A stretch of DNA of 64,000 nucleotides, taken from the IMG/VR virus record IMGVR_UViG_3300033475_001387; one strand, 5' to 3'. Shown in pieces: positions 22,119 to 50,927 of the stretch. The translations under genes and the position numbers were made by a program. The notes beneath the pieces were generated by a model. It worked only from the letters and a program-made list of their open reading frames with translations. It was not told where the DNA came from and did no database searches. Position 1 is the first letter of the stretch; every line of letters starts with the position of its first letter. Source of the DNA: a virus.

Positions 22119-22262
22119 GCCCCTGCTGGGTGTGCAGGCGTCGCTTACTTCCGCCTGTTAAGCGGCTGATATCGGTTCGAGTCCGGTCGGCGGCTTCGGC
22201 CGCTGTAGCTCAATCGGCAGAGCAGCTACGTTCGCGGCACCGACTTGTTCTCCGGCAGGGCG
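22119..22262 (+). ncRNA. YrlA-like Y RNA unit B with permuted tRNA domain
   Basis: Order: anticodon-like hairpin (CT-GTT-AA), T arm ATCGG-TTCGAGT-CCGGT, 7-bp acceptor closed by TTCG, D arm GCTC-AATCGGCA-GAGC. Confidence 0.8.
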
Positions 22263-22577: not shown

Positions 22578-24239
22578 ATGTCGAAGTTCAACCGCAGCAC
22601 CGTCCGGCCGGCTGTCCACTCGCCGGTCACCTCCGAGACCACCCCGTCCGGGCGCACGTTCGAGGGCGGCGCCGGCTACGCGCGAGACGCGAAGTCGGAG
22701 CTGTTCTTGCTCGCGGTCACGAACATGGTCGGCGAGAAGACGTTTTACGAGTCCGCGGAGGCGCGTGACGGCCGATTAGAGGCGCTCGTGCATCGGGTCG
22801 CGGTCGAGGACCCGGACTGGTTCGGCCGGTTCGTGCCGTGGGTGCGCTCGGACGCGAACATGCGCACCGCGTCCCTCGTAGCGGCCGCTGAAGGCGTCAA
22901 GGCGCGGCTCGACGCGGCCAAGGGCAGTGAGGGCCTGGGCACGCAGATGACTGTCGGCCACCAGACCGAGGACCACGCCGCCGGTGGTCAGAACCGCAAG
23001 CTCATCGCGGCCGCGTGCCAGCGTGCGGACGAGCCGGGCGAACTGCTCGCCTACTGGGTTTCCCGGTACGGTCGGACGATCCCGAAGCCGGTCAAGCGCG
23101 GCATCGCTGACGCCGCGGCGCGCCTGTACACCGAGCGCAGCCTCCTGAAGTACGACACCGCGTCCAAGGGCTACCGGTTCGGCGACGTCATCGACCTGAC
23201 GCACCCGGCGCCTGCCGGCGACAAGGCGCTCTGGCAGGGCGAGCTGTTCCGGCACGCCCTGGACCGGCGCCACAACCGCGACAACGGCATCCCCTCGGCG
23301 CTCACGGTCCTGCAGCGCAACGCACTGCTGCGCTCCGAGGGCGAGCCGGCCGACTGGCTGAACCCTGACACGCTCGCCGCGGCCGGGATCACGTGGGAGG
23401 ACGCGCTCTCCGCGGTCGGGTCGAAGGTCGACAAGGCCGCGCTGTGGTCGGCGCTGATCCCGTCGATGGGCTACATGGCGCTGCTGCGGAACCTGCGCAA
23501 CTTCGACGAGGCCGGTGTGCCCGACGCGATCGCGCAGACCGTAGCGGCGCGCCTGGCCGACCCGGCGGAGGTCGCCCGGTCGCGGCAGCTGCCGTTCCGG
23601 TTCCTCTCCGCGTACCGGGCGGCGCCGTCGCTGCGCTGGTCCTACCCGCTCGAGCAGGCGCTCGGCCACGCGCTCGCGAACATCCCCGCGCTGCCCGGTC
23701 GCACGCTAGTCCTCGTAGACACCTCGTCGTCGATGCACGCCGGGTTCTCGAAGGACGGCACGCTCATGCGCTGGGACGCGGCCGCGCTGTTCGGGATCGC
23801 GCTCGGCCAGCGGTGCAAGGCCGCGGACGTGGTGTCGTTCTCCTCGGCGCAGTACTACCACCACGACCCGGTCGGCGCGAAGACGAAGCCGTACCCGCTG
23901 CGCGCAGGCGAGTCGCTGCTCAAGTCGCTGGAGCGGTGGACAGCCGACGGGTACTTCCTCGGCGGCGGCACGGACACGCCCGCGGCGCTGCGCACCGAGT
24001 TCCGCGGCCACGACCGCGTGGTGATTGTCACGGACGAGCAGGCATCGGCGAACAGCGGCGAGGTCACGCAGGCGGTCCCGGGCTCAGTGCCGGTCTACAC
24101 CTGGAACCTGGCCGGCTACCAGTACGGGCACGCCCCGTCCGGCTCGGGCAACCGGCACACGTTCGGCGGGCTCACAGACCAGGCGTTCCGGATGATCCCG
24201 CTGCTCGAGTCGGGTCATGACGCGGTCTGGCCGTTCTGA
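22578..24239 (+). CDS. TROVE-domain RNA-binding protein (Ro60/Rsr ortholog) with VWA domain
   Basis: [62 protein letters not shown]. Confidence 0.92.
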
Positions 24240-27106: not shown

Positions 27107-27685
27107 ATGGAGCGGATTGTGACTGATCAGCCTCGACCGGTGGTGTACGTGGTGGGGTGCGGTGCGCGGGCGGCGGCCGAGCTGGGCCGGGCGGTGTCGC
27201 TGGCGCAGGCGGCCGGCTTCACGGCGTGCGTGGTGCTCACGCCTGCCGCGATGGAGTTCGCCGGCGATCTCGGGGCGCTGCGCGAGTTGACCGGGCATCC
27301 GGTGCGCTCGACGTACAAGCGGCCGGAGGAACCGGACGCGCTGCCGTTGCCGGATGCGTTCCTCGTCTCGCCGCTGACGTTCAACTCGCTGAACAAGTGG
27401 GCGGCCGGGATCAGTGACACGCTCGCGATGGGCCTGTTGAACGAGTCGCTGGGGATGGGCGTGCCGATCACGGCGGTGCCGTGGCTCAACGCCCAGTTGG
27501 CGGCGCACCCGGCGGTGGCGCCGTCGATCGCCCGGCTCGAGGCCGCCGGGGTCCGGTTCACCTCGGGCCTGGGGCATCCCTCGACGCGCATTCCCGGCCC
27601 GGACGGGAAGACGGGTACGCCGGTCTACCCATGGTTGGAGATCGAGCAGGCGCTCGTGGAGATGGCGGCCGCGGCCCGGGCGTAG
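27107..27685 (+). CDS. HFCD-family flavoprotein
   Basis: VVLTPAA, DAFLVSPLTFNSLNKWAAGISD, P.LN...AHP. Confidence 0.85.
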   Translation: MERIVTDQPRPVVYVVGCGARAAAELGRAVSLAQAAGFTACVVLTPAAMEFAGDLGALRELTGHPVRSTYKRPEEPDALPLPDAFLVSPLTFNSLNKWAAGISDTLAMGLLNESLGMGVPITAVPWLNAQLAAHPAVAPSIARLEAAGVRFTSGLGHPSTRIPGPDGKTGTPVYPWLEIEQALVEMAAAARA

Positions 27686-27737: not shown

Positions 27738-28616
27738 ATGCCGACGTCGGCGTGGACGGGTTCGATCAGCTTTGGCCTGGTCAACGTGCCCGTGCAGCTG
27801 TACAAAGCGACAGAGACGCACAGCGGGCCGGACTTCCACCAGGTCCATGTCCCCGACGGCGGGCGGATCCGACTCAAGCGGTTCTGTGAGCTGGAGGACG
27901 TCGAGGTGCCGCTGCATGAGATCAGTCGCGGTCTCACGGTCGGCCGGCGCGAAGTGGTGCTGACCTCGGCGGACATGGACACCCTGCCGCTGCCCTCGCG
28001 GTTCGTGATCGACGTGCAGGCGTTCGTGGACGCCGGCACGTTCGACGCCGTCCAGTTCGACCAGGCCTACTACGTGGGCCTGCCGCGGCGCACCCCCGGG
28101 AAGCCGTATGCGCTGCTGCGGGAGGCGATGCGGGAACGCGGCCAGGTCGCGGTCGCGAAGGTCACGCTCACCACCCGGGAGTCGCTCGCGGTGCTGCGCG
28201 TGGTCGGCGACATGCTCGTGCTGCACACGATGCTGTGGCCCGACGAGGTCCGCTCACCGCAGGGCGTGCCGACGGCGGACGACGAGATCCACTCGAACGA
28301 GCTCAAGATGACGATCTCGCTGATGCATGCCATGTCGCGGGACTTCCGCTTCGAGGACCTGCACGACGAGTATCGGCACGCCCTCGAGGAACTGGTCGAC
28401 GCGAAGCTGCACGGCGAGCAGCCCGCGGAGATCCGGCGGCCGCGGCGCGCGGTCGTCGACATCACGAAGGTGCTCGCGGAGTCGCTCGCAGCCGCGGAGG
28501 CGGCACATCCCGCCCACGAGCCGGAACCGGCGCCGAGGAAGCAGGCGGCGAAGAAGCCAGCGCCGGCGGCCAAGAAGGCGCCCGCGAAGAAGACCACGCC
28601 GCGGCGGACAGGCTGA
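27738..28616 (+). CDS. ku: Ku DNA end-binding protein
   Basis: WTGSISFGLVNVPVQLY, KPYALLREAM, Lys/Ala-rich tail. Confidence 0.95.
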   Translation: MPTSAWTGSISFGLVNVPVQLYKATETHSGPDFHQVHVPDGGRIRLKRFCELEDVEVPLHEISRGLTVGRREVVLTSADMDTLPLPSRFVIDVQAFVDAGTFDAVQFDQAYYVGLPRRTPGKPYALLREAMRERGQVAVAKVTLTTRESLAVLRVVGDMLVLHTMLWPDEVRSPQGVPTADDEIHSNELKMTISLMHAMSRDFRFEDLHDEYRHALEELVDAKLHGEQPAEIRRPRRAVVDITKVLAESLAAAEAAHPAHEPEPAPRKQAAKKPAPAAKKAPAKKTTPRRTG

Positions 28617-39783: not shown

Positions 39784-40242
39784 TCAGGCGAAGAGCGCCT
39801 TCGGATCCCAGCCGGGCACAACGGTTACGGGGATGCCGGCGCGCTGCCAGACCTCGACGACCTCGGGTCGGTCATCGTAGGCGTGCACGACCTGGAAGCT
39901 CGGTCGGATCTTCCTGAGGATCTCGGCCTTCACCACGTGGTCCGGGCGCGAGTCGTTCGTCGCGCGCATCCACATCGCCTCGGACGGGACGTCGTGCAGT
40001 GCGAGCCACCAGGCGGTGATATTCCGGTAGCGGGCCTGCCGCGCGGTCACGATCAACACGGCGCGACCTGCCGCGTGCTCGGCGCGGGCGGCCTGCACAA
40101 CCCAGTCGTTCGCGGGTGCGTCGATGCTGGCGCGGTGGAACGCGTCGAACCGGCCGGGCCCGTCGAGCAGGTGGCGCAGGCCTCGCACGTCGGCGAGGGT
40201 GCCGTCCATGTCGAACACCACGGCCTCGGGCAGATCAGGCAA
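39784..40242 (-). CDS. HAD phosphatase, Pnkp 3'-phosphatase-like
   Basis: FDMDGTLAD, IVTAR, MRATNDSRPDHVVK, YDDRPEVV; TTG start overlapping upstream stop. Confidence 0.85.
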   Translation of the reverse strand: MPDLPEAVVFDMDGTLADVRGLRHLLDGPGRFDAFHRASIDAPANDWVVQAARAEHAAGRAVLIVTARQARYRNITAWWLALHDVPSEAMWMRATNDSRPDHVVKAEILRKIRPSFQVVHAYDDRPEVVEVWQRAGIPVTVVPGWDPKALFA

Positions 40243-40960
40243 CGGGCACCTCCTCGCGCGGCTGGATGTAGTGGGCGGCGCGGACCCGGTTGAGCCAGGC
40301 CTGCACGACGCCGGTGCGCGGCTCGTCCGGCAGCACGGTGCGCGCGCTGGCGAACCGCTCCTCCGCGGCCGCCATGAACGGCACCGCGGTCTGCGGGTCG
40401 GCGGCGACCTGCTCGCCGAAGTCCAGGTAGCGCTGCGGGTCCTCGAGCCGGATGCGCAGCCGGCCGGTGGTGTAGAGCTCATAGCCCTGATCCACCAAGC
40501 GCATCAGGTGCCGGGCATGCTTGGCGGTGCGCCGGTCGGGGATGTCGCTGCCGAACCTGCCGCGGTCGAGCAGCCTGCGGAACTGCTGGGTCGCGTACCC
40601 GAGATACGCGTCGTGGGTGCGCTTGGCGGACAGAAACGCTTCGCGGATCGCGATCAGGTCGGCGCCGAGGGGCGTGCGGATCTCGTACTCGTCGAGGTGC
40701 ATCAGCTCCATGACCGTCGGATTGCCGCGGAGCGCGAGCCGCGCGTACTTCGCTGCCTCGTGCAGGGTCACGTCCGGGTCGTGGGTGACCCACGAGTCCT
40801 TCGGCTCGTCAAGGTCGAACAGGCGCCGCGTCGGCCACGCGAACACGCCAAGCCTGTCCACGTCGGAGTCGGGGCCGGCCAGCCCGTAGGCGGTGGACCC
40901 GACGATGCCCTGCAGCAGGATGTGCACGGTTCCTCCCCGGGCGTTGGCGATGTCATCCAT
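40235..40960 (-). CDS. Pol-beta superfamily nucleotidyltransferase (RlaP/YcgL type)
   Basis: GIVGSTAYGLAGPDSDVDRLGVF, GNPTVMEL, KHARHLMRL. Confidence 0.88.
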   Translation of the reverse strand: MDDIANARGGTVHILLQGIVGSTAYGLAGPDSDVDRLGVFAWPTRRLFDLDEPKDSWVTHDPDVTLHEAAKYARLALRGNPTVMELMHLDEYEIRTPLGADLIAIREAFLSAKRTHDAYLGYATQQFRRLLDRGRFGSDIPDRRTAKHARHLMRLVDQGYELYTTGRLRIRLEDPQRYLDFGEQVAADPQTAVPFMAAAEERFASARTVLPDEPRTGVVQAWLNRVRAAHYIQPREEVPVA

Positions 40961-41009
40961 GGTGCCTCGATTTTCGAGGGGCGCAGCACCGTTTCTGCGG
41001 CCGTGTCGG

Positions 41010-41615
41010 CTACGAGAGGCCGAGCGCGCTCTCGGCGGTCATCCAGTTCGCGGCGATGGCCTGCTGCGCCGCGGCGACCTGGACCTTGCCGGAGCATACG
41101 GCCTTGTGAAGGTCGTTTTCGACCTTGTCCTTGGGGTTGGGCAGCTTCCCGACCTCCGGCCAGAGGTTGGCGACGTCGTTGGCTCCCCCAAGTTCGAGAG
41201 GGACATCGTGGTCGAGCTCTGAGACGGTGCCATTCGGGATGCTGTATGCGACGTACATCTTCGCCTTGAGCTTGTTGGTCGCGCTCGAGGACGGGCGGAC
41301 CTTCGCCGTGTAGCCGGAGGCGCAAATCGTGCTGCCGATGTTCGCCTGGGTGACCGCGGGGTCGATCGCGCCGGGCGTGCAGGCCGGGTCCGGCCGCGGG
41401 CCGGACAGGACATGGCAGGACGCGGGCACGGTCCCGGTCACCTTGCCGGGATCGTGGACCTGTAGGAGCGCGCCGGCGCGGGCCTGGCTGCCTGCCGAGG
41501 CCGCGCCGGCGGTCGCCGTGCCCGCCGCTGTGCCGGACCCCTGGACCTTGCATCCGGCGACGCAGCAGGCTGCGATAGCGAAGGTCGCGGCCAGGGCACG
41601 GAAGTTTCGTGTCAT
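41010..41615 (-). CDS. Secreted lipoprotein with HNH-like motif
   Basis: Signal with VAGC; PD...TPGA, ELDHDVPLELGG.N...NLWPE. Confidence 0.75.
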   Translation of the reverse strand: MTRNFRALAATFAIAACCVAGCKVQGSGTAAGTATAGAASAGSQARAGALLQVHDPGKVTGTVPASCHVLSGPRPDPACTPGAIDPAVTQANIGSTICASGYTAKVRPSSSATNKLKAKMYVAYSIPNGTVSELDHDVPLELGGANDVANLWPEVGKLPNPKDKVENDLHKAVCSGKVQVAAAQQAIAANWMTAESALGLS

Positions 41616-41692
41616 GCCTCGATTGTCGCGCCTCAGCCCGAGCTCCGCGGCCATTCAGCCCCGTGTGGCCGCCAGAGCTCAGGCGATGGGCG

Positions 41693-42439
41693 TCAGTACC
41701 TCCACGGCACCCGGGCGAGCACCAGGCCGGTCACCGACGCGGCACCGTGCTCCTTGAGCAGCCGCGCTACCGTGTCGAGCTGCGCTCCGGTGGTGAGCAC
41801 GTCGTCGTACACGAGGATCCGCGCGTCCAGCACCGACTCGAGGCCGTTGGGGAACTCCAGTGCCGCGGCGTGCGCTTCAGCGGCCTGGATCTTCGGCGCG
41901 AAGCTGGTGCTCTTCGACTTCGTCGTCTCGCTCGTCTTGATCATGACCGGCTCGTCCGGATGGACGATGTTGAAGTCATCCCACGCATCCTCACGCCAGG
42001 CGTGCCTGAGCACGGCCTCGGTGTGCCCGATGTCGCCTTCACGCCGGAACGTCGGATTCGGGATGATCAGATCGAAGTCCAGGGGGCTGCGGTTGCGGCG
42101 CAGCCACCCGAACACCAAGCGCCCGAATATCAGACCCCAGTGCGAGGACGGATTCTCCTTCAGCCTGAAGATCAGGCCGCGCAGCGGGTCGGTGTACACC
42201 GCCACCGCCGCCACCGACTCGATCGCCCGGTTCGGGTCGTTGCAGATCCGGTTCGTGCACTTACCCGACGCGCCGAGAGCCTGGCTGCACACCTCGCAGT
42301 GGTCGTCAGCGATCGGGGTGAGGGTCTTGGCCGCGCAGCGGGTGCACACCCGCACCGGGCCGTTGACGAGGAACGCGCAGGACAGGCAGTTCGGGAACCC
42401 CTTGGGCTCCGGAAGGCCGAGGCCGGCGCGATCCGTCAC
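41693..42439 (-). CDS. ComF-like phosphoribosyltransferase with N-terminal double zinc ribbon
   Basis: CLSC..CTRC..CEVC..C....C; ILVYDDVLTTGAQ PRPP loop. Confidence 0.88.
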   Translation of the reverse strand: MTDRAGLGLPEPKGFPNCLSCAFLVNGPVRVCTRCAAKTLTPIADDHCEVCSQALGASGKCTNRICNDPNRAIESVAAVAVYTDPLRGLIFRLKENPSSHWGLIFGRLVFGWLRRNRSPLDFDLIIPNPTFRREGDIGHTEAVLRHAWREDAWDDFNIVHPDEPVMIKTSETTKSKSTSFAPKIQAAEAHAAALEFPNGLESVLDARILVYDDVLTTGAQLDTVARLLKEHGAASVTGLVLARVPWRY

Positions 42440-43398
42440 TCTTCCTCCGCGAAAAGGTCGATGGCGAGCTGCTGGCGCGACTCTGCGACCGCGCTGATTC
42501 GGTCGGGTTCGGCCAGGTGCTTGAGAATCGTATCGCTGTCATCGACCTCTGTGGCTTTTCGGTCGGCGAGCATTTTCGCGGCCCAAGGCTGGGACTGTAC
42601 GAGCGAGCGAATCAGGAACACGCGCTTGCCGTGCTCGTAGGCGTATCTGGCCTGGAGTTTCGCACCGGACGTGGACCCGGCTTCGATTACGCAGGTGGCT
42701 TGGGAGAGCCCGGACATGGTGACGTTGCGCCGAGGGAACGTCCACTTCGCTGCCGATGACGATGGCCAGAACTGAGAGATCACGGCACCGTGCTCGGCGA
42801 TCCGGTCGGCGAGAGCCCGGTTCTCGGCGGGATAGCACTTCGTGATGCCGGTGCCGACAACGGCGAGGGTGCGGCCGCCCGCATCGAGGGTGGCCGTGTG
42901 CGCCGCGGTGTCGATACCGCGAGCGAGCCCGGAACAAATCCGCACTCCGTGGTCGCTGAGCTCCCGCGCCATGCGCGCGGCACGCCTGAGACCGTCGTCT
43001 GTGGCCTGACGGGTGCCGACCACGGCGATGGAGTAGGCGTCGTCTGGTTCGAGGGTGCCTTGGTAGAACAGGAACGGCGGCAGGTTCGGCACCAGGCGCA
43101 GGTTCGCTGGGTAGTCCTTGTCGAGCACGGTGGTCAGCCGCGCTCCGAAGCGTTCGGCGATCTCGAGTTCGCGTGTCACGCGCTCTTCAGCGGCCGAGAG
43201 GTCATGTTCCAGACCTGCGGCAAGGACGGTCTCGGATTTACGGGCGGCGCGGGAGTCTTCGGGGATGTGGCCGCGGTAGAGCTGGTCCAGGCCTCCGGCG
43301 AGTTGCGCTGTGCGCGCGAGGACGTACCAGTCAATGGTCGCGTCGCCGTGTCGTATGGCGGCGAGCACCAGCAGCCTGCGCTGGTCTGAAGTCGTCAC
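42436..43398 (-). CDS. dprA: DprA/Smf-family protein
   Basis: IAVVGTR, SGLARGIDTAAH, FPRRN, IEAGSTSGA; no C-terminal winged helix; start uncertain. Confidence 0.9.
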   Translation of the reverse strand: MTTSDQRRLLVLAAIRHGDATIDWYVLARTAQLAGGLDQLYRGHIPEDSRAARKSETVLAAGLEHDLSAAEERVTRELEIAERFGARLTTVLDKDYPANLRLVPNLPPFLFYQGTLEPDDAYSIAVVGTRQATDDGLRRAARMARELSDHGVRICSGLARGIDTAAHTATLDAGGRTLAVVGTGITKCYPAENRALADRIAEHGAVISQFWPSSSAAKWTFPRRNVTMSGLSQATCVIEAGSTSGAKLQARYAYEHGKRVFLIRSLVQSQPWAAKMLADRKATEVDDSDTILKHLAEPDRISAVAESRQQLAIDLFAEEE

Positions 43399-43628
43399 GG
43401 TGTGCCCTTCTACTGGGTTGCTCATGTTCGAAGGTGCGCGGTGTACCCGACGTATCAGTGGTACGTCGGGTACGCCGCACATCATGCCGTCTGCCTCTGA
43501 CATCGCATAGTGCTGGGTGTGTGTCGCGCTACACATTCGCCTGAGTGGGTGAGCTGTCGGTGACGTGCGGTGATCTTATGTCGGGTGGTGCGAGATGGCG
43601 TGTCGCGAAATGGAGTGATGTGCGCGCG

Positions 43629-49908: not shown

Positions 49909-50073
49909 ATGACGATCAACTGGAGTGACCCGACCAAGAACACGCAGGCGGACCTGGACGCCTACCGCCAGTGGATCGACGACACCAACCTGTCCAAGAA
50001 CCACAGCGACCTGTACCGGCCGGTCGTGAAGCGGGACGGCGACAAGCCGGCCGCCACTCCGGCCGCCGCGTAA
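49909..50073 (+). CDS. Small hypothetical protein (54 aa, not in ORF track)
   Basis: AAGGAGG RBS; MTINWSDPTK...TAA. Confidence 0.6.
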   Translation: MTINWSDPTKNTQADLDAYRQWIDDTNLSKNHSDLYRPVVKRDGDKPAATPAAA

Positions 50074-50303
50074 CCCAACTAGCCCCTCGGGGCCGCGAAG
50101 GCGGCCCTCAAGCCCCTGACCTCGGAGGTCCCGGGACTGCTGCCGCACCAGCAGTTACCTGGGGAGCCGGTTCGACACCGGCCTGTGGGCACGCACGATC
50201 CAAGCCCTCGTCTGGGTCGGACCGCTGGCCTCCCCCACCAGCGCGCGAGTTCGAGACTCGCGGAGGGCACTCGGCACCACCCGTTCGAGCAAGGAGCCTC
50301 CAA

Positions 50304-50927
50304 GTGGAGTACGAGCGCCGCACGATCACCCAGACCATCAAGGTCCCGACGAACACCGGCCGCACCGTGGACGAGCACACGCAGGCGTACCTGAACCGGG
50401 CGATGGACGTCATGGACTCGATGGGCATCGGCATGTGGCCCGCGGCAGTGACCAACCCGGACGCGGCAGGAGCAACCGAGGACGAGAAGCCGGAGGCGAT
50501 CCGCCTGACCGCGGACGTGGTGCTGTTCGGCGAGTTCGACGGCGTCGCGCACGTCCTGCTGATCGAGCGCGGCGACGAGCCGTTCAAGGGCCTGTCGGCA
50601 TGGCCGGGCGGCCACGCCGACGAGGGCGAGGACGTCAAGGCCGCCGCCTACCGCGAGTTGGCCGAGGAGACCGGAATCCACATCGGCCCGCAGCTCAAGC
50701 TGGTCGGCGCCTACCAGACCCCGGGCCGGGACCCTCGCGGCCGCTACGTCACCTTCGCCTACACCGGCCGACTCGGCCACCGCGTCGAGCCGACCGCCGG
50801 GGACGACGCGGCGAAGGCCGAGTGGGTGCGCCTGGACCGGGTGATGTCGGGCGACATTCTGCTCGCGTTCGACCACGCGGAGATCCTGCGGGACGCGCTG
50901 AAGGTGCAGCCGCTGTACGGCGCGTGA
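50304..50927 (+). CDS. Nudix hydrolase (pSAM2 Pif-like position)
   Basis: Nudix box GGHADEGEDVKAAAYRELAEETG; DPRGRYVT; LAFDHAEI. Confidence 0.9.
   Translation: MEYERRTITQTIKVPTNTGRTVDEHTQAYLNRAMDVMDSMGIGMWPAAVTNPDAAGATEDEKPEAIRLTADVVLFGEFDGVAHVLLIERGDEPFKGLSAWPGGHADEGEDVKAAAYRELAEETGIHIGPQLKLVGAYQTPGRDPRGRYVTFAYTGRLGHRVEPTAGDDAAKAEWVRLDRVMSGDILLAFDHAEILRDALKVQPLYGA

What the first reader, a model, noticed from the sequence alone, without database searches (positions are those of the whole stretch)
39784..40960. RlaP-type nucleotidyltransferase coupled to a stand-alone Pnkp-like 3' phosphatase
Seen: 8-nt overlap between the two genes; intact GS..YG...DSD.D and DxDGT/DDR motifs; no kinase domain. 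Established: T4 Pnkp phosphatase removes 2',3'-cyclic or 3' phosphates; RlaP-family pol-beta enzymes occur in RNA repair contexts. Inference: heal-then-extend module for broken RNA 3' ends, possibly restoring CCA ends; three of the element's five tRNAs lack encoded CCA.
Basis: partly seen in the sequence, partly recalled or inferred. Interest (0 to 1): 0.7.

Follow-up and report, generated by a model that had tools for sequence, protein, structure and literature searches.

The report
Phage RNA-end phosphatase and extender pair
Two overlapping genes of an uncultured Streptomyces-type phage encode an enzyme that most likely strips a blocking phosphate from a broken RNA end and one that then adds a nucleotide or two, a known repair chemistry that here occurs as a conserved kit lacking the usual kinase and RNA ligase.

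Summary
Gene A (40235-40960, minus strand, 241 aa) is an RlaP-family nucleotidyltransferase (PF10127, 81 bits). Gene B (39784-40242, TTG start, 152 aa) is a kinase-less T4-Pnkp-type HAD 3'-phosphatase (PF25109, 91 bits; TM 0.82-0.87 to 5UJ0). They overlap by 8 nt, and all catalytic motifs are intact.

The pairing is not chance:
- The same coupled pair, with 4-8 nt overlaps, recurs in related viral contigs and in a Streptomyces prophage.
- Two natural RlaP-HAD fusion proteins exist.
- In one sister phage the HAD is replaced by a calcineurin-like phosphoesterase.

Published biochemistry shows that RlaP extends RNA 3'-OH ends by 1-2 nt and cannot use 3'-phosphate ends, so "heal, then extend" is the best-supported reading.

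What is unusual is that four complete phage genomes with RlaP plus a stand-alone phosphatase carry no RNA ligase or polynucleotide kinase. Sister phages carry Rnl1-RlaP-Pnkp cassettes, and ligase tracks kinase (13/20 versus 0/12 loci). This points to ligase-independent repair of terminal (tRNA) 3' ends, or to hand-over to host enzymes.

No activity was tested here. This scan has already noted the same or similar pairs on other DNA. I class it as a new variant of a known kind, of moderate interest.

The parts
40235..40960 (-). RlaP-family Pol-beta nucleotidyltransferase gene (241 aa). Catalytic residues: G21-S22, D33, D35, D63.
   Evidence: - Pfam PF10127: 81.4 bits against a cut-off of 23. phrog_388: 3.5e-30.
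- Invariant residues in a 116-sequence alignment.
- AF2 model: pLDDT 93.4, an NTase domain plus a C-terminal helical domain.
- Nearest solved fold: Hailong HalB 9dbh, Z 10.2; also ANT(4').
39784..40242 (-). Stand-alone T4-Pnkp-type HAD 3'-phosphatase gene (152 aa, TTG start), with no kinase domain.
   Evidence: - Pfam PF25109: 91.3 bits against a cut-off of 27.6. phrog_415: 4e-40.
- phmmer to T4 Pnkp 1ltq residues 156-294: E 2.6e-13, with all catalytic residues aligned.
- AF2 model: pLDDT 95. Foldseek top hit 5uj0 (T4 Pnkp phosphatase): TM 0.82/0.87.
- 302 near-length homologues against 1 longer one.
40235..40242 (-). 8-nt overlap TTGCCTGA: the phosphatase start lies inside the end of the RlaP gene (translational coupling).
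   Evidence: - Read directly from the sequence.
- Equivalent overlaps in relatives: GTGCCTGA in the Streptomyces prophage L027, GTGA in L004, ATGA in L005.
40249..40255 (-). Shine-Dalgarno-like GAGGAGG, 6 nt before the TTG start of the phosphatase gene.
   Evidence: Read directly from the sequence. Its function is inferred.
40965..40968 (-). Shine-Dalgarno-like GAGG, 4 nt before the ATG of the RlaP gene.
   Evidence: Read directly from the sequence. Its function is inferred.

Best explanation
The two genes form one translationally coupled module that repairs RNA 3' ends.

1. The HAD enzyme, of the same type as the phosphatase half of T4 Pnkp, removes a 3'-phosphate (probably also a 2',3'-cyclic phosphate) left by a metal-independent ribonuclease or another end-blocking defence enzyme. 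This gives a 3'-OH.
2. [quoted passage not shown]

In this phage lineage the module works without a phage polynucleotide kinase or RNA ligase. The repaired end is therefore most likely a terminal one, such as a tRNA acceptor 3' end that the host CCA-adding enzyme and synthetases can then finish. Otherwise it is handed to host sealing enzymes.

Shown here: family membership, intact active sites, conserved coupling, fusions, partner replacement, and absence of ligase and kinase. Inferred: the substrate, the order of the two steps, and the biological target.
For: **Family and active sites**.

**Published biochemistry** (bioRxiv 10.64898/2025.12.29.696909).
- Pseudomonas RlaPs add 1-2 NMP to RNA 3'-OH.
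- RNA with a 3'-phosphate is not a substrate, and DNA is not a substrate.

**Conserved coupling.**
- RlaP is directly followed by a stand-alone HAD in L004, L005, L013 and L027, with 4-8 nt overlaps, and the two genes lie near each other in L007.
- 12 of 80 IMG/VR RlaP loci carry a kinase-less HAD within 4 kb.

**Natural RlaP-HAD_PNKP fusions in the same order.** P0243 (377 aa, in a cellular genome) and P0252 (375 aa).

**Non-homologous replacement of the partner.** A calcineurin-like phosphoesterase overlaps RlaP in L006/L033, which sits inside the window's 97%-supported clade, and in L024.

**Sister phages carry fuller cassettes.** Rnl1 ligase-RlaP-Pnkp occurs in L008, L010, L011 and P0019 (76% identical RlaP).

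**RNA-end neighbours.**
- Thg1-like 5'-end repair polymerase lies beside the pair in L005 and L027.
- CCA-adding enzyme lies beside RlaP in 6 of 80 loci.

**Ligase-less, kinase-less state.**
- Complete genomes G001-G003 and the cultured Streptomyces phage Satis have RlaP plus a stand-alone HAD but no Rnl1, PF09414, RtcB or AAA_33 kinase. Positive controls did give hits.
- Ligase lies within 4 kb in 13 of 20 Pnkp loci and 0 of 12 stand-alone-HAD loci, Fisher p = 4e-4.
- L082 and L083 share RlaP at 79% nucleotide identity. Homology stops exactly at its 3' end, followed by stand-alone HAD in one and ligase+Pnkp in the other.
Against: - No activity has been measured for these proteins. The window RlaP is distant from the Pseudomonas enzymes that were tested.
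- Those enzymes preferred an anticodon-loop break end to the CCA end. That favours break repair, which needs a ligase.
- The window's contig is only about 66 kb of a probable 110-130 kb genome, so a ligase could lie outside it.
- Either gene also occurs alone in actinomycete chromosomes: HAD alone in L025/L026, RlaP alone beside a PIN toxin pair in L023. The partnership is therefore not obligatory.
- 37 of the 80 RlaP loci had none of the partners I searched for within 4 kb.
- In Satis-type phages the two genes lie 120 kb apart.
Confidence: 0.62

Rival explanations
1. Ordinary heal-fill-seal break repair, as in T4. The pair heals and fills the 3' side of an anticodon-loop cut. A kinase and ligase encoded elsewhere, either in the unsequenced part of this phage or in the host, finish the job.
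For: - Tested RlaPs prefer break ends in a nicked-tRNA mimic.
- Close relatives (P0019 at 76% identity; L008, L010, L011) have Rnl1-RlaP-Pnkp cassettes.
- The window covers only about 64 of roughly 66 kb of a partial contig.
Against: - Four complete genomes with RlaP plus a stand-alone HAD lack every RNA ligase family and the kinase that I searched for.
- No ligase or kinase was found in the 64 kb.
- Host RtcB needs the very 3'-phosphate that this phosphatase would remove (established chemistry, discussed).
- No host RNA 5'-kinase partner was identified.
Confidence: 0.2
2. DNA end processing. The 3'-phosphatase and the Pol-beta-type transferase clean and fill DNA ends for Ku-dependent end joining of the phage genome.
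For: - The window encodes Ku (27738-28616).
- G002 has an ATP-dependent DNA ligase about 5 kb from the pair.
- T4 Pnkp phosphatase also acts on DNA 3'-phosphates (established knowledge).
Against: - Ku lies 12 kb away on the other strand and is absent from all five related complete genomes that carry RlaP and HAD.
- Tested RlaPs do not extend DNA.
- The conserved neighbours are RNA enzymes: Rnl1, Thg1-like and CCA-adding enzyme.
Confidence: 0.06
3. A job unrelated to repair. One possibility is small-molecule or signal-nucleotide chemistry: an ANT-like adenylyltransferase or a HalB-like oligonucleotide synthase working with a nucleotide phosphatase. Another is offensive tagging of host tRNA 3' ends to shut down the host, as MenT toxins do.
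For: - The nearest solved folds are Hailong HalB (Z 10.2) and aminoglycoside ANT(4').
- The pair sits in an accessory region next to a ShosTA-like pair.
- Tested RlaPs also label intact tRNA and rRNA 3' ends.
Against: - The Pfam RlaP score is far above its cut-off, and identity to HalB and ANT is only 12-17%.
- The phosphatase is specifically of the Pnkp type. The next HAD classes score about 5 orders of magnitude worse.
- There are no PADLOC hits.
- The neighbourhoods are consistently RNA repair.
Confidence: 0.1

Closest known systems
RlaP nucleotidyltransferases (PF10127): P. fluorescens and P. aeruginosa RlaP; T4 NrdC.11 (Carruthers, Fatma and Huang 2025 preprint; named by Burroughs and Aravind 2016)
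   Same: - Same Pfam family, well above threshold.
- Same GS / DxD / third-carboxylate active site.
- Same two-domain build: NTase plus a helical domain.
- The expected activity is addition of 1-2 nt to RNA 3'-OH.
   Different: - The Pseudomonas genes sit between rtcB and rtcA. Here there is no ligase at all, and the partner is a 3'-phosphatase, which the preprint does not mention.
- The sequences are distant, and no activity has been tested.
Phosphatase domain of T4 polynucleotide kinase-phosphatase (1ltq, 5uj0) and of Pnkp1 in the Pnkp1/Rnl/Hen1 complex (4xrp)
   Same: - 32-33% identity and TM 0.82-0.87.
- All acyl-phosphatase residues conserved: DxDGT, T/R, D/K, DD.
   Different: - No N-terminal P-loop kinase.
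- It belongs to a separate lineage that is almost always stand-alone: 302 near-length homologues against 1 longer one.
- It is only about 31% identical to the HAD of neighbouring phages' full Pnkp.
T4-type heal-and-seal tRNA repair (Pnkp + Rnl1) and the actinophage Rnl1-RlaP-Pnkp cassettes (L008, L011, P0019, GiJojo)
   Same: Same RlaP subfamily (52-76% identity), same phage group, and the same logic of making a 3'-OH and refilling lost bases.
   Different: Kinase and ligase are missing together. The cassette downstream of RlaP is swapped as a block (L082 versus L083).
Ligase-free RlaP + CCA-adding/HD enzyme pairs in phages (earlier scan note e1-3277783; 6 of 80 loci in my census)
   Same: RlaP is tightly linked to a second tRNA-3'-end enzyme with no RNA ligase nearby.
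   Different: The partner here is a Pnkp-type HAD phosphatase, not a CCA-adding enzyme with an HD phosphohydrolase domain.
Hailong HalB (9dbh), a template-independent oligodeoxyadenylate synthase of an anti-phage system
   Same: It is the best structural match: Z 10.2, 170 residues, rmsd 3.9 Å. Both are 3'-end-extending Pol-beta NTases.
   Different: Identity is only 13%. No HalA-like partner was examined here. The similarity is in fold, not in family membership.

Membership tests
RlaP (PF10127) | Match to the family profile above the curated threshold | tested here: met
   81.4 bits against a cut-off of 23, E 1.1e-22. phrog_388: 3.5e-30.
RlaP (PF10127) | Pol-beta NTase catalytic signature (G[GS], DxD, third carboxylate) | tested here: met
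   G21, S22, D33 and D35 are invariant and D63 is at least 90% conserved across 116 sequences.
RlaP (PF10127) | N-terminal NTase domain plus a C-terminal helical domain that form a cleft (PfRlaP crystal description) | tested here: inconclusive
   The AF2 model (pLDDT 93.4) has this layout. The PfRlaP coordinates are not in the PDB copy, so no direct superposition was possible.
RlaP (PF10127) | Gene neighbourhood with an RNA ligase (origin of the name) | tested here: not met
   No ligase was found in the window or in four complete relatives. The feature is met in sister lineages. This is a contextual feature, not a structural one.
RlaP (PF10127) | Adds 1-2 NMP to RNA 3'-OH; is inactive on 3'-P RNA and on DNA | not testable with these tools
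   Needs enzyme assays.
T4 Pnkp-type HAD phosphatase (PF25109) | Profile match and fold | tested here: met
   91.3 bits against a cut-off of 27.6. 5uj0: TM 0.82/0.87, E 1e-12. Other HAD classes score 7e-7 or worse.
T4 Pnkp-type HAD phosphatase (PF25109) | Catalytic residues equivalent to T4 D165, D167, S211, R213, D254, K258, D277, D278 | tested here: met
   D11, D13, T66, R68, D101, K105, D123 and D124 align with them and are invariant or nearly so. The T4 residue roles are recalled from the literature.
Bifunctional Pnkp (kinase-phosphatase) | P-loop 5'-kinase domain fused to the phosphatase | tested here: not met
   The 152-aa protein has only the HAD domain. My kinase HMM finds nothing in the window.
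T4-type heal-and-seal RNA repair system | 5'-kinase, 3'-phosphatase and RNA ligase all encoded together | tested here: not met
   Only the phosphatase is present. Kinase and ligase are absent from the window and from complete relatives.

The most novel reading that the evidence does not exclude
The RlaP plus stand-alone phosphatase pair (also found fused into one protein) is a self-sufficient, ligase-independent counter-defence that rescues tRNA acceptor ends.

- The phosphatase strips 3'-phosphate, cyclic-phosphate or even pyrophosphate blocks. Possible sources are acceptor-stem RNases, or toxSAS/CapRel-type effectors, which are known to pyrophosphorylate tRNA CCA ends (PMC9712102; bioRxiv 10.1101/2021.04.30.441581).
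- RlaP rebuilds nucleotides that the CCA-adding enzyme cannot add.
- Thg1-like and CCA-adding enzymes are optional add-ons.
Probability: 0.25. Interest if true: 0.7.

Novelty: new variant of a known kind. Interest (0 to 1): 0.45.

Why it matters
RlaP was characterised only in late 2025, and two questions remain open: how its substrates get a 3'-OH, and what happens to its products.

- **Source of the 3'-OH.** A conserved, sometimes fused, RlaP/3'-phosphoesterase partnership answers the first question genetically.
- **Fate of the products.** Complete phage genomes that have this pair but no kinase or ligase suggest an RNA-end repair route that needs no sealing step. Its likely targets are defence enzymes that damage or block tRNA 3' ends.
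- **Where to test it.** The cultured phage Satis on S. lividans, and a Streptomyces prophage with the identical 8-nt-overlap pair, are practical systems.

If the pair turns out to be ordinary break repair using host enzymes, the finding is only a well-documented example of a catalogued toolkit.

Tried and rejected
- **Longer start.** The 232-aa ORF from ATG 40482 was rejected as the phosphatase gene (see observation check).
- **Vestigial kinase.** A tblastn extension of L008 Pnkp into the region upstream of the TTG is low-complexity, high-GC sequence lying inside the RlaP frame. I did not take it as a vestigial kinase.
- **Close DNA relatives.** Megablast of 10 kb around the pair found nothing in the phage or plasmid collections.
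- **Whole genome.** None is held for the window.
- **PDB sequence match for RlaP.** None was found.
- **PADLOC.** No hit for either protein.
- **Uninformative negative control.** The PF09511 search of related genomes rang in no control genome. I repeated the test with the L008 ligase protein and with PF09414; both found the ligases in positive-control phages.
- **Literature.** Burroughs and Aravind 2016 (PMC5062991) is not held. I could not check whether they drew this exact pairing and relied on the summary in PMC7824862.
- **HMM contamination.** The second iteration of my kinase HMM was contaminated by HAD sequence. I redid the census with domain-level hits from the clean HMM.
- **Tree quality.** The tree is the quick search, not the finished careful one.
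- **Ku and Ro60/Y RNA links.** Both were considered and set aside, because relatives that carry the pair lack both.
- **Upstream gene.** The 214-aa gene upstream of RlaP is not conserved next to RlaP in relatives.

Full report
**1. What is there**

The window is about 70% GC. Earlier notes of this scan read it as a large uncultured actinophage. The RlaP protein is on record on a contig of 65,893 bp, so the window is nearly all of a partial genome.

On the minus strand lie two genes:
- A 241-aa gene (40960 to 40235).
- A 152-aa gene that starts at TTG 40242 and ends at 39784. The two overlap in TTGCCTGA.

A GAGGAGG lies 6 nt before the TTG. The longer ORF from ATG 40482 is an artefact of high GC:
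- The RlaP frame has GC3 of 0.94.
- The public gene call is also 152 aa.
- A Streptomyces prophage homologue starts at the equivalent GTGCCTGA.

**2. Families**

Gene A:
- It matches Pfam RlaP PF10127 at 81 bits (cut-off 23) and phrog_388 "nucleotidyltransferase".
- In a 116-sequence alignment G21, S22, S32, D33, D35, K147, R154 and R227 are invariant. D63, H67 and E68 are nearly so.
- The AF2 model is confident (pLDDT 93.4) and shows an NTase domain plus a helical domain.
- The best solved match is Hailong HalB (Z 10.2, 170 residues), followed by ANT(4').

Gene B:
- It matches PF25109 HAD_PNKP at 91 bits.
- It aligns to T4 Pnkp residues 156-294 with every catalytic residue kept.
- Its model (pLDDT 95) superposes on the T4 phosphatase domain 5uj0 at TM 0.82/0.87. 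Other HAD classes score about five orders of magnitude worse.
- It has no kinase domain. Its lineage is almost always stand-alone: 302 near-length homologues against one longer protein.

**3. Is the pairing meaningful?**

Yes, on several independent grounds.
- **Adjacency in viral contigs.** Of ten close viral contigs, L004, L005 and L013 have RlaP directly followed by the same HAD (65-72% identity), and L007 has it 1 kb away.
- **Same overlap in a prophage.** A prophage in Streptomyces sp. NPDC051452 has the pair with the same 8-nt overlap. L004 and L005 use 4-nt overlaps with different start codons.
- **Fusions.** Two cluster representatives are single polypeptides, RlaP then HAD_PNKP. P0243 is a solitary gene in a cellular actinobacterial assembly, and P0252 comes from a metagenome.
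- **Partner replacement.** In L006/L033 a calcineurin-like phosphoesterase overlaps the RlaP start instead. That phage sits inside the window's own 97%-supported clade of eight, of which seven have the stand-alone HAD. L024 shows the same arrangement.
- **Genome-level co-occurrence.** The seven cultured Streptomyces phages with the best RlaP matches are also the seven with the best HAD matches, although there the genes lie 120 kb apart.

**4. Neighbourhood census**

I examined 80 IMG/VR loci holding this RlaP subfamily, 4 kb on each side:

| Partner within 4 kb | Loci |
|---|---|
| Stand-alone HAD | 12 |
| Full kinase-HAD Pnkp | 20 (13 also have an Rnl1-type ligase) |
| Calcineurin-like phosphoesterase | 4 |
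| CCA-adding enzyme | 6 |
| Thg1-like only | 1 |
| None of these | 37 |

- Thg1-like genes accompany the stand-alone-HAD pair in L005/L013, L038 and L027.
- Ligase goes with kinase and never with the stand-alone HAD: 13/20 versus 0/12, Fisher p = 4e-4.
- On the quick tree the stand-alone state needs at least five origins.
- L082 and L083 share RlaP at 79% nucleotide identity. The homology ends exactly at the RlaP stop. It is followed by a stand-alone HAD in one and by ligase plus Pnkp in the other, and the two HADs are only 25% identical. The downstream cassette is therefore exchanged as a unit.

**5. A ligase-less, kinase-less toolkit**

- The complete genomes G001, G002 and G003 (CheckV 100%) carry the pair. 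They have no match to the L008 Rnl1 ligase, PF09414, RtcB or the AAA_33 kinase. They also lack CCA-adding enzyme, Ku and TROVE.
- G006 and G008, which have full cassettes, gave the expected hits.
- The cultured Streptomyces phage Satis (186.7 kb) shows the same pattern, while DatBoi and GiJojo act as positive controls.
- The window itself has no kinase, ligase, phosphoesterase, Thg1 or CCA enzyme by HMMs built from the relatives.

**6. Mechanism**

The only experimental work on the family (bioRxiv 10.64898/2025.12.29.696909) shows the following for the Pseudomonas RlaPs:
- They add one or two NMPs to RNA 3'-OH.
- They do not use 3'-phosphorylated RNA or DNA.
- They prefer Mn2+.
- They can partly restore aminoacylation of a tRNA that lost a nucleotide before ligation.

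That paper never mentions a phosphatase. A 3'-phosphoesterase partner is what such an enzyme needs after cleavage by metal-independent RNases. Healing of 3'-P and 2',3'>P ends by T4 Pnkp is established knowledge.

I therefore read the pair as "heal, then extend". Because kinase and ligase are absent together, the likeliest use is on terminal 3' ends, such as damaged tRNA acceptor ends. That fits the Thg1-like and CCA-enzyme neighbours. The main alternative is break repair completed by unlinked or host enzymes. Against a terminal-end role, the Pseudomonas enzymes preferred a break end to the CCA end.

**7. The CCA idea**

- tRNA-Met and tRNA-Thr lack an encoded CCA. tRNA-Ala and tRNA-Tyr have one.
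- Since host CCA-adding enzymes normally serve such genes, this is not evidence for the pair's function.

**8. Novelty**

Both families, and the general link of RlaP with RNA-repair phosphoesterases in phages, are catalogued (PMC7824862, summarising Burroughs and Aravind 2016, which I could not read). This scan has also noted the same or similar pairs on other DNA: e1-5391689/-696/-704, e1-3795897, e1-3413212, and the related RlaP plus CCA-enzyme pair e1-3277783.

What I could not find described:
- The documented stand-alone, translationally coupled and sometimes fused RlaP-phosphatase unit.
- Its repeated exchange with ligase+Pnkp cassettes.
- Its presence in complete genomes with no ligase or kinase.

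Verdict: a real feature, a new variant of a known kind, of moderate interest.

Noticed in passing
window 41693-43536 (-): A DprA-family gene (PF02481, 1.4e-61) overlaps a zinc-ribbon ComF-like phosphoribosyltransferase that hits PADLOC ShosT (1.2e-7) and PsyrT. This is a ShosTA-like defence pair two genes upstream of RlaP on the same strand.
   Followed up: partly
window 41010-41654 (-): The 214-aa ORF directly upstream of RlaP has a lipoprotein-like N-terminus (a Cys after a hydrophobic stretch). It has no Pfam, PHROG, NCBIfam or PADLOC hit and is not found next to RlaP in relatives.
   Followed up: partly
window 22578-24239 (+) and 22119-22195: A TROVE/Ro60 gene lies just after an ARAGORN 'tRNA-Asn' call that Rfam does not call a tRNA. 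Earlier notes read this as a Y RNA array. Five related complete genomes carrying RlaP and HAD lack TROVE.
   Followed up: partly
window 27738-28616 (+), 27107-27685 (+), 49971-50927 (+): Phage-borne Ku (PF02735, 2.3e-39), a flavoprotein and a NUDIX protein. Ku is absent from the related complete genomes.
   Followed up: partly
proteins P0248, P0253, P0256, P0338, P0381: RlaP homologues of 367-407 aa. The match to the window protein is split in two after about residue 133 by an insertion of roughly 140 aa with no Pfam hit. It could be an intein or an inserted domain.
   Followed up: no
L023 (Streptacidiphilus sp. EB129 chromosome): A solitary RlaP (67% identical) sits next to a divergently transcribed PIN/RHH toxin-antitoxin pair. 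This is a possible cellular pairing of an RNase toxin with an RNA-end extender.
   Followed up: no
L025/L026 (Streptomyces chromosomes): The stand-alone Pnkp-type HAD (64% identical) is a conserved chromosomal gene without RlaP. It lies between a LysR-type regulator and a SpoIIE/HATPase sensor phosphatase.
   Followed up: no
L002 (Streptomyces phage GiJojo) and phage records: Many roughly 140-150-aa actinophage genes annotated 'polynucleotide kinase' are phosphatase-only homologues of this HAD and so are probably mis-named. GiJojo has RlaP, a small 'PnuC-like' gene and a full Pnkp in a row.
   Followed up: no
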